A stretch of 64,000 nucleotides of DNA from Escherichia coli (GTDB lineage: Bacteria; Pseudomonadota; Gammaproteobacteria; Enterobacterales; Enterobacteriaceae): assembly GCF_030013205.1 (NCBI RefSeq), contig NZ_CP122648.1. One strand, 5' to 3'. Of the stretch, positions 15,414 to 18,400 are shown in pieces. The first letter of the stretch is position 1. The number at the start of each line of letters is the position of its first letter. Position numbers: made by a program.

Positions 15414-18400
15414 TGGTACGCGAGCTGGGTTTAGAACGTCGTGAGACAGTTCGGTCCCTATCTGCCGTGGGCGCTGGAGAACTGAGGGGGGCTGCTCCTA
15501 GTACGAGAGGACCGGAGTGGACGCATCACTGGTGTTCGGGTTGTCATGCCAATGGCACTGCCCGGTAGCTAAATGCGGAAGAGATAAGTGCTGAAAGCAT
15601 CTAAGCACGAAACTTGCCCCGAGATGAGTTCTCCCTGACTCCTTGAGAGCCCTGAAGGAACGTTGAAGACGACGACGTTGATAGGCCGGGTGTGTAAGCG
15701 CAGCGATGCGTTGAGCTAACCGGTACTAATGAACCGTGAGGCTTAACCTTACAACGCCGAAGATGTTTTGGCGGATTGAGAGAATTTCAGCTTGGATCCA
15801 GAGTCCGAAGGATTTTGCGCTGAGACAAGGCGGCAAATGAAGCGAAGGAGGGAGCATACTGAAGTATGTGACTGACTTTCGTGAATGCAGCCAACGCAGT
15901 ATCAGCCCAAAAGACACAGGACAGAGCACAGGAATTTGCCTGGCGGCCGTAGCGCGGTGGTCCCACCTGACCCCATGCCGAACTCAGAAGTGAAACGCCG
16001 TAGCGCCGATGGTAGTGTGGGGTCTCCCCATGCGAGAGTAGGGAACTGCCAGGCATCAAATTAAGCGAAAGGCCATCCGAAAGGATGGCCTTTTTGCATT
16101 GGTGCAAAACAAATGCCGGATGCGACGCTGGCGCGTCTTATCCAGCTTACGCAGGCACGATTGGGGGCAGCTTATTCCTCCACATACGCCAGCGAATACG
16201 GCTTCCCCAACTTGCTCACTTCCATATGTGTCCTCCTTACCAGAAATTTATCCTTAAGCTCCTCAATAACCATTTTCCTGCTAACTAAATTCATGGTTAA
16301 GGTTGCATAATGATACGCAACAAATGTATAACATTTTCTTTACCAAAAAAAATAAACAACAGCGACCGACAAAAGCATCGGATTACGGCAGGAGATATAA
16401 TGGCATGGCTGAAAGTACTGTAACGGCAGACAGCAAACTGACAAGTAGTGATACTCGTCGCCGCATTTGGGCAATTGTGGGGGCCTCTTCAGGTAATCTG
16501 GTCGAGTGGTTCGATTTCTATGTCTACTCGTTTTGTTCACTCTACTTCGCCCACATCTTCTTCCCTTCCGGGAACACGACGACTCAACTACTGCAAACAG
16601 CAGGTGTTTTTGCTGCGGGATTTCTGATGCGCCCAATAGGCGGTTGGCTATTTGGCCGCATAGCCGATAAACATGGTCGCAAAAAATCGATGCTATTATC
16701 GGTGTGTATGATGTGTTTCGGCTCACTGATTATCGCCTGTTTGCCAGGCTACGAAACAATCGGTACCTGGGCTCCGGCATTATTGCTTCTTGCTCGTTTA
16801 TTCCAGGGATTATCCGTTGGCGGAGAATATGGCACCAGGCCACCTATATGAGTGAAGTTGCCGTTGAAGGGCGCAAAGGTTTTTACGCATCATTTCAGTA
16901 TGTGACGTTGATCGGCGGGCAATTGCTAGCTCTACTGGTTGTCGTGGTTTTACAACACACCATGGAAGACGCTGCACTCAGAGAGTGGGGATGGCGTATT
17001 CCTTTCGCGTTAGGAGCTGTGTTAGCTGTTGTGGCGTTGTGGTTACGTCGTCAGTTAGATGAAACTTCACAACAAGAAACACGCGCTTTAAAAGAAGCTG
17101 GATCTCTGAAAGGATTATGGCGCAATCGCCGTGCATTCATCATGGTTCTCGGTTTACCGCTGCGGGCTCCCTTTGTTTCTATACCTTCACCACTTATATG
17201 CAGAAGTATCTGGTAAATACTGCGGGAATGCATGCCAACGTGGCGAGTGGCATTATGACTGCCGCATTGTTTGTATTCATGCTTATTCAACCACTTATTG
17301 GCGCGCTGTCGGATAAGATTGGTCGTCGTACCTCAATGTTATGTTTCGGTTCGCTGGCAACCATTTTTACCGTTCCTATTCTCTCAGCATTGCAGAACGT
17401 TTCTTCGCCTTATGCCGCTTTTGGTCTGGTGATGTGCGCCCTGCTGATAGTGAGTTTTTATACTTCAATCAGTGGAATACTGAAGGCTGAGATGTTCCCG
17501 GCACAGGTTCGCGCATTAGGCGTTGGTCTGTCATATGCGGTCGCCAATGCTATATTTGGTGGCTCAGCAGAGTATGTAGCGTTGTCGCTGAAATCAATAG
17601 GAATGGAAACAGCCTTCTTCTGGTATGTGACCTTGATGGCCGTGGTGGCGTTTCTGGTTTCTTTGATGCTACATCGCAAAGGGAAGGGGATGCGCCTTTA
17701 ATTATGCGCCAACTGCCAGACGGTATAGCCAGTAGTTGCACCGGCGACATCCCAGGTAAAATCTTTCCAGCTCCAGCCGCTCCCCTCGGGGCGGCTATCC
17801 CAAAGTTCTTTTGACGCGCCCAGCCCAACAGAGAACATCAGCCCGAAAGTGGCACTGCGATCGCGACTCATCCCCTGATGCTGTGCATATTCATTTCCGG
17901 CGGCGGAAAGCATCGCCGAGGCGATAAAGTGTTGAGCTTTATCCTGCCCGCTCCAGCTATCGTTAGCCATATGGCTGCATCCAGAAAGTAACAATAGCGA
18001 GCAGACAAAAAGAATACGCAAAACGTGGCCTCCAAAAAACAAACCCCGTACAGGACGGGGTTGTGATTACAGGATGCGGCTAATTAATCGGTCGATGCGG
18101 ATACGGCGCAAACGGCGGATGAGTTTACGAACCTTCACCGGATAATCGGCAATACTTTGCAGATCGCGATAGTGCTTAACGATGGTGGTATGCTCGCGGA
18201 TCAGCTCCAGTTCTTTCTCTCGCTGCGGCGCAAGCTCCAGTTGTGGATCGTGGATCAAAATGGCGTTTTCCAGATCCAGACGCCAGGCGCGCGGGTTCAG
18301 GTTATTACCGGTGATCAACATCCACTTATCATCAACCCACATCCCTTTCAGGTGATAGGTGTTGTCGTCATCTTTCCATAACCGAACCACTAGCTGGTCA

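What the first reader, a model, noticed from the sequence alone, without database searches (positions are those of the whole stretch)
15752..15936. 23S-5S spacer appears longer than the canonical rrn spacer
By my reading the spacer between the 23S 3' end and 5S 5' end is about 185 nt, and its sequence differs from what I recall for rrnB (about 92 nt). This may simply be normal rrn operon heterogeneity; I cannot confirm the rrnG reference from memory.
Basis: inference. Interest (0 to 1): 0.15.

Follow-up and report, generated by a model that had tools for sequence, protein, structure and literature searches.

The report
ERIC-type hairpin in 23S-5S spacer
This 23S-5S spacer is the already-published 186-nt "long" E. 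coli allele, and its extra length is an ERIC-family palindromic repeat that folds into a ~120-nt hairpin just before 5S rRNA and is shared with Salmonella, Klebsiella, Enterobacter and many other enterobacteria; this is ordinary operon heterogeneity, but with a specific, conserved cause.

Summary
The 23S ends at 15750 and the 5S starts at 15937, so the spacer is 186 nt (15751-15936). All seven K-12 MG1655 spacers are 92-93 nt. The window is rrnG of a pig ETEC/O139 E. coli lineage.

The 186/92-bp dimorphism is already published for E. coli B REL606, where gene conversion swaps the two alleles (PMC8022953). In complete genomes, 368 of 5,426 carry the long allele.

What I did not find in the accessible literature is its nature:
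- Spacer nt 1-51 match K-12.
- K-12's small hairpin is replaced by a ~120-nt imperfect palindrome (15803-15922) of the ERIC/IRU repeat family (profile E = 8e-11; E = 3e-5 with canonical copies only).
- The same element sits 19-41 nt upstream of 5S in more than 20 species of Enterobacteriaceae and Erwiniaceae, including Salmonella and Klebsiella.
- Its stem is kept by compensatory changes (97% of cells paired; 10 covarying pairs; 0/500 shuffles).

The element occupies a variable slot that is empty in Yokenella and holds small, unrelated hairpins in K-12, Leclercia and Serratia.

It is most likely transcribed in the 9S precursor and removed by RNase E. Whether it aids processing or is a tolerated passenger is unresolved. 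Interest is modest.

The parts
12847..15750 (+). 23S rRNA gene of rrnG
   Evidence: Rfam LSU_rRNA_bacteria, 2868 bits, full length. It differs from K-12 rrlG at 27 alignment columns, in patches.
15751..15802 (+). 5' part of the spacer, homologous to K-12 spacer nt 1-51. It includes the 23S 3' trailer (ACAACGCCGAAGAUGUUUUGGCG, 15751-15773) and the conserved UUUCAGC motif.
   Evidence: Pairwise alignment. K-12 spacer nt 1-51 match the long-spacer profile at E = 2e-12. These columns are conserved across genera. A role of the trailer in the 23S RNase III stem is from established knowledge and was not tested here.
15803..15922 (+). ERIC/IRU-family imperfect palindrome, which as RNA forms one long hairpin (spacer nt 53-172)
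   Evidence: MFE fold -57 kcal/mol, z = -3.8. ERIC nhmmer profile hit at 15805-15912, E = 8.4e-11, model positions 7-115 of 129; it is the only significant hit in the 64-kb window. The canonical-copies-only profile gives E = 3.3e-5. Covariation across genera.
15851..15874 (+). Apical part of the hairpin (GGAGCAUAC-UGAA-GUAUGUGACUG). This is the ERIC core region targeted by the ERIC-PCR primers.
   Evidence: 20/24 match to the primer-derived ERIC core, above all 500 shuffles. The stem sequence is nearly invariant across 19 spacers from 13 genera (one substitution in one sequence), while the 4-nt loop varies.
15923..15936 (+). A-rich linker AGAGCACAGGAAUU between the hairpin base and the 5S 5' end. 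It carries the conserved ACAG(G)AAUU motif where RNase E cuts the 9S precursor in K-12.
   Evidence: The motif (A)CAGAAUU or a close variant directly precedes the 5S in nearly all long and short spacers examined. The cleavage position itself is from established knowledge of 9S RNA and was not tested here.
15937..16056 (+). 5S rRNA gene (rrfG)
   Evidence: Rfam 5S_rRNA, 92.8 bits. Identical to K-12 rrfG (0 differences).
16068..16093 (+). GC-rich palindromic hairpin followed by a T run; probably the operon terminator
   Evidence: Terminator-like site in the consensus scan, which reported it on the - strand because the stem is palindromic. Assigning it as the rrnG terminator is inference.

Best explanation
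The spacer is the 'long' (186-nt) allele of the E. coli 23S-5S spacer. It shares its first ~51 nt with the K-12 92-nt allele (the 23S 3' trailer and a UUUCAGC motif), and also the last ~9 nt (ACAG(G)AAUU, directly before the 5S). Between them lies a slot. K-12 has a 24-nt hairpin there. This allele has a ~120-nt imperfect palindrome of the ERIC/IRU repeat family. Identity of the element: confidence about 0.9.

The element is transcribed with the operon and lies in the 5' leader of the 9S pre-5S RNA. It folds into one long hairpin whose base ends 14 nt before the 5S, and it is discarded when RNase E cuts just upstream of the 5S. These steps are inferred from K-12 biochemistry.

The same element at the same position is present in Salmonella, Klebsiella, Enterobacter, Kosakonia, Citrobacter, Trabulsiella, Pantoea, Erwinia, Tatumella and others. 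Its stem is maintained by compensatory substitutions, so it is old and constrained, not a recent insertion.

Within E. coli it is a minority allele (about 7% of complete genomes). It sits in different operons in different strains (rrnG here; rrnA in E. coli B strain C2566; the rrnA/E/H spacer type in REL606 according to PMC8022953) because gene conversion moves it between operons.

Functionally, my best guess (about 0.35) is that it works like the small leader hairpin of K-12 9S RNA: a structured element next to the single-stranded RNase E site, which RNase E can dock on through its duplex-binding groove.
For: Length and K-12 comparison.

ERIC identity:
- The ERIC primer sequences (PMC6066780) give the ERIC core.
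- An element in the glyV-glyX spacer of strain 042 matches the core at 34/40 (z = 13.8). The window spacer matches it at 20/24 (z = 5.2). The two elements align over ~110 nt with score 50, against 11 +/- 2 for shuffles.
- An nhmmer profile built from ERIC copies that include no rrn sequence hits the window only at 15805-15912, E = 8.4e-11.
- A profile built from the five canonical copies alone still gives E = 3.3e-5.

Hairpin: MFE z = -3.8.

Cross-species presence: 38 loci from more than 20 Enterobacterales species have an ERIC-profile hit 19-41 nt upstream of a 5S; none of the 82 non-enteric chance matches does. Salmonella and Klebsiella were reached independently through kgtP synteny.

Covariation:
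- RNAalifold finds 11 pairs with changes on both sides.
- 97.1% of cells are paired against 28-46% in the slid controls, with 10 covarying pairs and 0/500 shuffles reaching that.
- The basal stem has six different self-complementary sequence pairs. Cognate flanks give -9.1 kcal/mol and non-cognate flanks -4.4, with 0/5000 permutations as low.

Dimorphism and gene conversion: PMC8022953.

9S leader and RNase E: the in-vitro 9S substrate starts at spacer nt 9 (PMC2948425). RNase E recognises stem-loops next to its cleavage sites (PMC9841416). In K-12 the small hairpin ends 11 nt before the 5S; here the hairpin ends 14 nt before it.
Against: Against a required processing role:
- The slot is empty in Yokenella (68-nt spacer).
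- It holds small hairpins of unrelated sequence in K-12, Leclercia and Serratia.
- 93% of E. coli genomes lack the element.
- Laboratory lines switch alleles by gene conversion.

Against textbook ERIC membership:
- The copy is diverged (20/24 in the core), and no TA target-site duplication is evident.
- The allele is not a simple insertion into the K-12 allele. The K-12 3' 41 nt have no detectable homologue in the long allele.

No RNA data were examined here, so transcription, folding and cleavage of this allele are inferred.
Confidence: 0.75

Rival explanations
1. Tolerated passenger. The slot just upstream of the 5S is a permissive place, because the RNA there is discarded, and palindromic elements have lodged in it repeatedly. 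The ERIC-type element has no positive role. Its stem is conserved only because a 120-nt insert in pre-rRNA must stay folded on itself so that it does not mispair with 23S/5S sequences or block processing.
For: The slot content is highly variable. It is empty in Yokenella. K-12, Leclercia, Serratia and L149 carry different small hairpins. Other taxa carry the ERIC-type hairpin, and Intestinirhabdus has two in tandem. Most E. coli lack it. The two alleles interconvert in mutation-accumulation lines, and one conversion separates REL1206 from REL606.
Against: Unpaired or partly paired motifs are invariant or nearly so across two bacterial families (AAGGCGGCAA, GUGACUGA, GCAGCCAACGC). A requirement merely to form a hairpin does not explain that. 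Hairpin identity between genera is very high: 117/119 for E. coli B versus Pseudocitrobacter, and 114/118 for Salmonella versus Klebsiella.
Confidence: 0.45
2. Foreign origin of the E. coli long allele. It entered E. coli by recombination from another enterobacterial genus (a Pseudocitrobacter- or Enterobacter-like donor) and then spread among operons and strains by gene conversion and recombination. This concerns origin and is compatible with either functional reading.
For: Hairpin identity to Pseudocitrobacter faecalis is 96.6-98.3% and to Enterobacter cloacae about 91%. It is only about 81% to Salmonella and Klebsiella, which carry a different allele type with another basal stem. The distribution is patchy: 7% of genomes, in different operons in different strains. 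The window's operon is mosaic relative to K-12 rrnG: it has a different ITS1 type and patches of 23S differences.
Against: The 5' part of the long allele looks E. coli-like (GGAUUGAGAGAA, as in K-12 rrnA/E/H) and not Pseudocitrobacter-like, with 74% identity in that part. E. coli long alleles differ from each other by about 3%, so the allele is not brand new. Both allele types occur in both families, which also fits old allelic lineages. I could not obtain E. albertii or E. fergusonii.
Confidence: 0.4
3. Recent transposition of an ERIC element (a small non-autonomous mobile repeat) into rrnG of this pig-associated lineage.
For: The window's strain group has the long allele in one operon only, with one place per genome in ETEC1748 and its relatives. 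ERIC is classed as a MITE, a miniature inverted-repeat transposable element (PMC3184786).
Against: The same element with the same flanks is at the same position in more than 20 species. It differs from canonical ERIC copies far more than a fresh copy would. It replaces about 41 nt of the K-12 allele instead of interrupting it. No target-site duplication is seen. Gene conversion from another operon or strain explains a single-operon distribution.
Confidence: 0.03
4. Assembly or reading artefact, for example a collapsed or chimeric rrn operon.
For: rrn operons are classic sites of misassembly.
Against: Identical sequence occurs in 18 complete genomes from different laboratories, and more than 95% identical sequence in 368 genomes. 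The 186-bp allele was confirmed by PCR and Sanger sequencing in REL606-derived strains. The operon is colinear with K-12 from the 16S to kgtP.
Confidence: 0.01

Closest known systems
The 186-bp and 92-bp 23S-5S spacer alleles of E. coli B REL606 (PMC8022953, G3 2020)
   Same: Same length (186), same locus type, and the same species. The rrnA spacer of E. coli B strain C2566 is 96.9% identical to the window's central segment. [quoted passage not shown]
   Different: The long allele is in rrnG here; the paper names the rrnA/E/H spacer type, and I confirmed rrnA directly only in B strain C2566. The window's allele differs at 4 of 119 hairpin positions. The paper does not say what the 186-bp allele is: it has no mention of ERIC, a hairpin or RNase E.
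ERIC / IRU elements (enterobacterial repetitive intergenic consensus; ~127-bp imperfect palindromes; Sharples & Lloyd 1990, Hulton et al. 1991, as cited in PMC3184786 and PMC6066780)
   Same: Size (~120 nt), imperfect palindrome, location in a transcribed intergenic region, enterobacterial host range, significant profile similarity over model positions 7-115 of 129, and the conserved motifs AAGGCGGCAA, GUGACUG and GCAGCCAACGCA.
   Different: It is a diverged subfamily: the apical stem is GCAUAC/GUAUGU where canonical copies have GCUUAC/GUAAGU, a change on both sides that keeps the pair. The copy is orthologous across two families and is not a dispersed copy. No TA duplication is seen. It lies in a stable-RNA operon, not next to a protein gene. 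Its nearest relative found in E. coli is another stable-RNA copy, in the glyV-glyX spacer.
The 5' leader hairpin of K-12 9S RNA, the classical RNase E substrate (Ghora & Apirion 1978; Cormack & Mackie 1992, cited in PMC2948425 and PMC9841416)
   Same: Same position in the precursor: a stem-loop ending 11-14 nt before the 5S, followed by the single-stranded ACAG(G)AAUU segment. The 9S substrate contains the whole spacer from nt 9 onward.
   Different: 120 nt against 24 nt, with no detectable sequence homology between the two. Whether the long hairpin affects RNase E cleavage has not been tested.
ERIC copies in Yersinia transcripts that alter mRNA stability through RNase E (De Gregorio et al. 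2005, as summarised in PMC3184786)
   Same: An ERIC hairpin within a transcript close to an RNase E cleavage site.
   Different: Those copies are in mRNA 3' regions and act on mRNA decay. This one is in a pre-rRNA that RNase E processes anyway.
Intervening sequences (IVS) in 23S rRNA genes of Salmonella and other enterobacteria (recalled from memory; not checked here)
   Same: Extra hairpin-forming segments within rrn operons that are excised from the precursor, are sporadically distributed among operons and strains, and are thought to spread by recombination and gene conversion.
   Different: IVSs lie inside the 23S gene (helices 25 and 45), are removed by RNase III, and fragment the 23S. This element is in the spacer and leaves the mature rRNAs unchanged.

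Membership tests
ERIC / IRU repeat family | Significant sequence similarity to the ERIC consensus, including the central core used for the ERIC-PCR primers | tested here: met
   Profile hit E = 8.4e-11 (7 copies, no rrn sequence) and E = 3.3e-5 (5 canonical copies only), covering model positions 7-115 or 16-103 of 129. The core match is 20/24, above all 500 shuffles. The copy is diverged relative to canonical copies, which score down to E = 1e-25 (for example L091).
ERIC / IRU repeat family | Imperfect palindrome of about 127 bp that can form a long stem-loop | tested here: met
   Hairpin spanning 120 nt (15803-15922), -57 kcal/mol, z = -3.8. The exact-seed inverted-repeat finder reported nothing because the arms are interrupted by many mismatches. 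Covariation supports the pairing.
ERIC / IRU repeat family | Located in transcribed, non-coding (intergenic) sequence of Enterobacteriaceae | tested here: met
   It lies between the 23S and 5S genes of one operon in E. coli. Transcription is inferred from operon structure and from 9S RNA biochemistry.
ERIC / IRU repeat family | TA target-site duplication and terminal inverted repeats typical of a MITE (PMC3184786) | tested here: inconclusive
   The ends pair (GUCC...GGAC), but the end sequences differ between taxa in a compensatory way. Comparison with the empty slot of Yokenella (…CAGAUUAACAGAAUU) shows no clear TA duplication around the element.
ERIC / IRU repeat family | Multiple dispersed copies per genome | tested here: inconclusive
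   There is no other ERIC copy in the 64-kb window. The family is dispersed in enterobacterial genomes, and a related copy lies in the glyV-glyX spacer of about 1,500 E. coli genomes. The rest of this strain's genome was not examined.
E. coli 186-bp 23S-5S spacer allele (PMC8022953) | 186-bp spacer with little homology to the 92-bp allele, coexisting with it in one genome | tested here: met
   The spacer is 186 nt. It is 96.9% identical over its central 131 nt to the E. coli B rrnA spacer, and 115/119 in the hairpin. Identical strains have one long copy, and the short allele elsewhere.
9S RNA leader stem-loop acting with RNase E | Stem-loop immediately upstream of the single-stranded RNase E site that lies 5' of the 5S | tested here: met
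   The hairpin base is 14 nt before the 5S, against 11 nt in K-12, and the ACAG(G)AAUU motif is conserved. This shows positional equivalence only.
9S RNA leader stem-loop acting with RNase E | The stem-loop influences the rate or accuracy of RNase E cleavage | not testable with these tools
   This needs in-vitro cleavage assays or in-vivo mapping. An empty slot in Yokenella argues that a hairpin is not universally required.

The most novel reading that the evidence does not exclude
The ERIC-type hairpin is an anciently domesticated repeat that has become a functional part of the enterobacterial pre-5S (9S) RNA. In this reading it is a docking module, with invariant unpaired motifs, for RNase E or another processing or assembly factor. 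It has been conserved since before Enterobacteriaceae and Erwiniaceae split, so K-12, on which all 9S biochemistry rests, would show a reduced architecture. A more speculative extension is that the very highly transcribed rrn- and tRNA-operon copies are long-lived source copies from which the dispersed ERIC elements derive.
Probability: 0.2. Interest if true: 0.55.

Novelty: new member of a known kind. Interest (0 to 1): 0.3.

Why it matters
The length difference itself is already known and matters little. Three things are useful.

1. It explains what the 'second allele' of the E. coli 23S-5S spacer is: an ERIC-family hairpin. It also shows that this is the spacer form found in Salmonella, Klebsiella, Enterobacter and many other genera.

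2. The classical RNase E substrate, 9S RNA, has been studied only in its K-12 (rrnB) form. Many enterobacteria, and some operons of the laboratory workhorse E. coli B/BL21, make a precursor with a 120-nt conserved hairpin in the leader. Strains with both alleles in one cell allow a direct side-by-side test.

3. It is a clean case of a dispersed repeat held at one orthologous site for a very long time with compensatory evolution. That bears on whether ERIC elements are selfish, structural or functional.

Practically, the spacer is a convenient marker for rrn gene conversion and for checking rrn assembly, and it is one genuine ERIC-like target inside rrn operons.

Tried and rejected
- **K-12 short spacer as an ERIC remnant or internal-deletion derivative of the long one.** By eye, both K-12 halves resemble ERIC ends. 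Local alignments against seven ERIC copies were not significant (best 26/1000 shuffles, uncorrected). The long-spacer profile aligns only K-12 nt 1-51. Rejected as unsupported.
- **Internal promoter in the spacer.** No sigma-70-like site was found.
- **Known RNA family.** Rfam has nothing on the hairpin in E. coli or Salmonella, even at permissive thresholds.
- **Exact-seed inverted-repeat search.** It found nothing because the palindrome is too imperfect. Folding and covariation were needed instead.
- **MAFFT alignment of the long spacer with the K-12 spacers.** It forced the non-homologous middle together and was misleading, so I replaced it with pairwise and profile comparisons.
- **'The long form is the norm and K-12 is the odd one out'.** I held this view after and then withdrew it. 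The genome scan could only find ERIC-bearing spacers. The unbiased kgtP-synteny sample gives two long (Salmonella, Klebsiella) and five short or empty (Serratia, L149, L152, Leclercia, Yokenella).
- **E. albertii and E. fergusonii spacers.** None were listed in the KgtP cluster.
- **Uninformative loci.** L141 is an error-rich assembly with no recognisable 5S. L143, a second Klebsiella locus, also showed no 5S. The Cronobacter contig ends inside kgtP.
- **Papers not held.** Antón et al. 1999 (PMC93708) and Wilson & Sharp 2006 are not in the library, so I could not check whether either already noted an ERIC in this spacer.
- **Open-access full-text searches linking ERIC with the 23S-5S spacer.** Nothing relevant was found.
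Full report
**1. Observation**

Rfam places a complete rrn operon on the + strand: 16S at 10951-12492, tRNA-Glu at 12578-12653, 23S at 12847-15750, and 5S at 15939-16054. 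Read against the K-12 annotation convention, the 23S ends at 15750 (…GGCTTAACCTT) and the 5S starts at 15937 (TGCCTGGCGGC). The spacer is therefore 15751-15936, which is 186 nt.

I fetched all seven MG1655 operons. Their spacers are 92 nt (rrnB, C, D, G) or 93 nt (rrnA, E, H). The spacer here is twice as long, and K-12 rrnG does not carry it.

The window is E. coli rrnG, with kgtP downstream. It is 100% identical over 2 kb to pig ETEC and O139:H1 isolates.

**2. How common it is, and what was already known**

The full 185-nt query is present at 80% coverage or more in 368 of 5,426 complete E. coli genomes. It is identical in 18 of them, and always chromosomal. The central 131 nt give the same 368 genomes. 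E. coli B derivatives are among these; strain C2566 rrnA is 96.9% identical over the central segment.

The dimorphism is published. [quoted passage not shown] Gene conversion swaps them at 3.5e-5 per genome per generation (PMC8022953). That paper does not say what the long allele is.

**3. What the extra sequence is**

Pairwise alignment shows that spacer nt 1 to about 51 and the last ~9 nt are homologous to K-12, and the middle is different.

A low-stringency search with the middle segment found a 75%-identical 96-nt match in about 1,500 E. coli genomes. It lies in an enlarged 157-nt spacer between the first two tRNA-Gly genes of the glyV-glyX-glyY operon, for example in strain 042. K-12 has 36- and 35-nt spacers there.

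The motifs reminded me of ERIC/IRU repeats, so I tested that idea.

- The published ERIC-PCR primers (PMC6066780) define the ERIC core.
- The strain 042 element matches the core at 34/40 (z = 13.8).
- The window spacer matches the core at 20/24 (z = 5.2, above all 500 shuffles).
- The two elements align over ~110 nt with score 50, against 11 +/- 2 for shuffles.

I then collected independent ERIC copies from viral contigs and built an nhmmer profile containing no rrn sequence. It hits the 64-kb window exactly once, at 15805-15912 (E = 8.4e-11, model positions 7-115 of 129). It also hits the E. coli B spacer, and it hits none of the K-12 short spacers. A profile built from the five canonical copies alone, which removes any circularity from the gly-type copies, still gives E = 3.3e-5.

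As RNA, the spacer folds into one long imperfect hairpin covering spacer nt 53-172 (15803-15922), at -57 kcal/mol and z = -3.8.

The extra sequence is a diverged member of the ERIC family. ERIC is described as a ~127-bp imperfect palindrome and classed as a MITE (PMC3184786, PMC6066780).

**4. It is old and shared, not a recent insertion**

One scan of species-representative genomes used the ERIC left-arm motif placed 85-115 nt upstream of the 5S start.

Thirty-eight of those loci have a significant ERIC-profile hit, and all 38 are Enterobacterales. The genera are Enterobacter, Citrobacter (3 species), Kosakonia, Trabulsiella, Pseudenterobacter, Pseudocitrobacter, Phytobacter, Superficieibacter, Cedecea, Intestinirhabdus, Pantoea, Tatumella, Erwinia, Rosenbergiella, Winslowiella and Izhakiella. 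The element is always 19-41 nt upstream of the 5S. The 82 other loci are chance matches in unrelated GC-rich genomes, and none of them has an ERIC hit. Where the 23S end is on the contig, the spacer is 186-262 nt.

I reached Salmonella enterica (195 nt) and Klebsiella michiganensis (193 nt) independently, through kgtP synteny. Both have the element.

**5. The hairpin is under structural constraint**

On a plain MAFFT alignment of 19 distinct spacers, RNAalifold recovers the hairpin, with 11 pairs changed on both sides.

For the 27 hairpin pairs:
- 97.1% of cells are standard pairs, against 28-46% when the partner is slid by 1-3 columns.
- 10 pairs and 33 cells show changes on both sides, reached by 0 of 500 shuffles.

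MAFFT misaligned the basal stem, so I tested it without an alignment. There are six different self-complementary flank pairs:
- GUCC/GGAC
- GUACGCAAU/AUUGCGUAC
- GAAACGAA/UUCGUUUC
- GGAAUGAA/UUCAUUCC
- UCCGG/CCGGA
- GUUGUUCA/UGAAUAAC

Cognate flanks pair at -9.1 kcal/mol and non-cognate flanks at -4.4. None of 5,000 permutations is as low.

Several motifs are invariant or nearly so across both families: the apical stem, and the partly unpaired AAGGCGGCAA, GUGACUGA and GCAGCCAACGC.

**6. The slot**

An unbiased sample of the kgtP-linked operon shows that long spacers are not universal:

| Organism | Spacer length |
|---|---|
| Serratia plymuthica | 100 nt |
| Leclercia adecarboxylata | 90 nt |
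| Yokenella regensburgei | 68 nt |

None of these has an ERIC hit.

All spacers share the 23S trailer, a (A/U)UUCAGC motif, and ACAGAAUU directly before the 5S. What differs is the content between …CAGAUUAA and AACAGAAUU:
- nothing in Yokenella;
- small hairpins of unrelated sequence in K-12 (AUCAGAaCGC-AGAA-GCGgUCUGAU), Leclercia, Serratia and L149;
- the ERIC-type hairpin in the long forms.

Intestinirhabdus alba has two ERIC-type hairpins of different subtypes in tandem.

MFE folds place the insert in the loop of a small outer stem (CAGAUU/AAUUUG) that spans the 5S 5' end. This is prediction only.

The K-12 3' 41 nt have no detectable homology to the long allele. The two E. coli alleles therefore differ by replacement of the slot content, not by a simple insertion or deletion.

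**7. Origin within E. coli**

E. coli long alleles form a tight group at 95-100% identity. Their hairpin is 96.6-98.3% identical to that of Pseudocitrobacter faecalis and about 91% to that of Enterobacter cloacae. It is only about 81% identical to Salmonella and Klebsiella, which are 96.6% identical to each other and carry a different basal stem. This does not follow the species tree as I know it.

Both subtypes also occur in Erwiniaceae. Either the allele lineages are old, or spacers move between genera. I cannot tell which.

The window's operon is mosaic relative to K-12 rrnG:
- the 5S is identical;
- the 23S differs at 27 columns, in patches;
- the 16S differs at 16 columns;
- ITS1 is of a different type, 354 nt against 431 nt.

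In the window's strain group the long allele is in one operon only. PMC8022953 names an rrnA/E/H spacer type in REL606, and I confirmed rrnA directly in B strain C2566. This difference in operon location is what gene conversion would produce.

**8. How it most likely works**

Shown:
- The element lies within the operon, between the 23S and the 5S.
- It can fold into a long hairpin.
- That fold is conserved by compensatory change.

Established knowledge:
- The whole spacer from about nt 9 is the 5' leader of 9S RNA; the in-vitro 9S template starts at GAAGCTGTTTTGGCGGATGAG (PMC2948425).
- From my own knowledge of Ghora & Apirion 1978 and Cormack & Mackie 1992, which I did not re-read here, RNase E cuts 9S RNA a few nucleotides upstream of the mature 5S 5' end.
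- RNase E recognises stem-loops next to its cleavage sites through a duplex-binding groove (PMC9841416).
- ERIC hairpins in Yersinia transcripts influence RNase E-dependent decay (as summarised in PMC3184786).

Inferred:
- The long allele is transcribed in the 9S precursor, and its hairpin sits 14 nt before the 5S, against 11 nt for the K-12 hairpin.
- The hairpin is released when RNase E cuts.
- It may serve as the structured element that presents the site to RNase E (probability about 0.35).

The main rival (about 0.45) is that it is a tolerated passenger in a permissive slot, kept folded only so that it stays harmless. The empty slot in Yokenella, the variety of slot contents, and the free interconversion of alleles in the laboratory favour the passenger view. 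The invariant unpaired motifs and the very high cross-genus identity favour a function.

**9. Novelty and verdict**

The length dimorphism is already known. It is reported in PMC8022953, and from its abstract as I recall it, Antón et al. 1999 reported strong polymorphism at the 3' end of this spacer in ECOR strains; I could not read that paper.

Three points did not appear in the accessible literature, and Rfam has no family for the element:
- the long allele is an ERIC-family hairpin;
- it is orthologous across Enterobacteriaceae and Erwiniaceae, with covariation;
- it occupies a variable slot in the 9S leader.

I could not check Wilson & Sharp 2006.

I file it as a new member, in a new location, of a known kind. 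Interest is modest: this is ordinary operon heterogeneity with a specific, conserved and testable cause.

Noticed in passing
window 16405-17701 (+): kgtP, downstream of rrnG, is broken into three overlapping ORFs in different frames, which implies two frameshifts. RefSeq annotates it as a 'frameshifted' pseudogene in the identical strain ETEC1748 (NZ_CP122719.1). The alpha-ketoglutarate permease therefore appears to be inactivated in this pig ETEC lineage, unless the frameshifts are shared assembly errors.
   Followed up: partly
L008:2485-2605 (E. coli 042, NC_017626.1 about 4978183-4978303): A ~121-nt ERIC-family element sits in the glyV-glyX tRNA spacer (157 nt, where K-12 has 36 nt). It is present in about 1,500 of 5,426 E. 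coli genomes and absent from K-12. It is the closest E. coli relative of the rrn spacer element (75% identity), and it also lies in a stable-RNA operon spacer that RNase E processes.
   Followed up: partly
window 12493-12846: ITS1 of this rrnG is 354 nt and aligns poorly with K-12 rrnG ITS1 (431 nt; 132 differing alignment columns). By length it resembles the K-12 rrnC/rrnE type. The operon is a mosaic of spacer alleles relative to K-12.
   Followed up: no
L131:40-310 (Intestinirhabdus alba NZ_WMJZ01000075.1): The 23S-5S spacer carries two ERIC-type hairpins in tandem. They are of two different subtypes: one has a GUACGCAAU…AUUGCGAAC base and the other a GUCC…GGAC base. The spacer is therefore about 300 nt.
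   Followed up: partly
window 16064-16147: A REP/BIME-like palindromic segment lies just after the 5S terminator. It gives a sub-threshold Rfam naRNA4 match on both strands (34 bits against a gathering score of 59.5). This region has an extra block relative to K-12 (gap columns around 16130-16146).
   Followed up: no
H48-H50 (E. coli ST2747, NZ_CP007392-4), region matching window 15600-17600: In these strains an IS3-like IS1397-family transposase is annotated within the stretch that matches window 15600-17600 (23S 3' end through kgtP). The match is split into two pieces spanning about 3.4 kb.
   Followed up: no
window 12731-12839: Rfam StyR-44 (a Salmonella Typhi non-coding RNA family) matches at 124.9 bits immediately upstream of the 23S. 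This is the conserved 23S leader part of ITS1. It is also found in locus L149.
   Followed up: no
window 15787-16107 (-): A 106-aa ORF on the minus strand spans the spacer and the whole 5S gene. It is almost certainly spurious.
   Followed up: no
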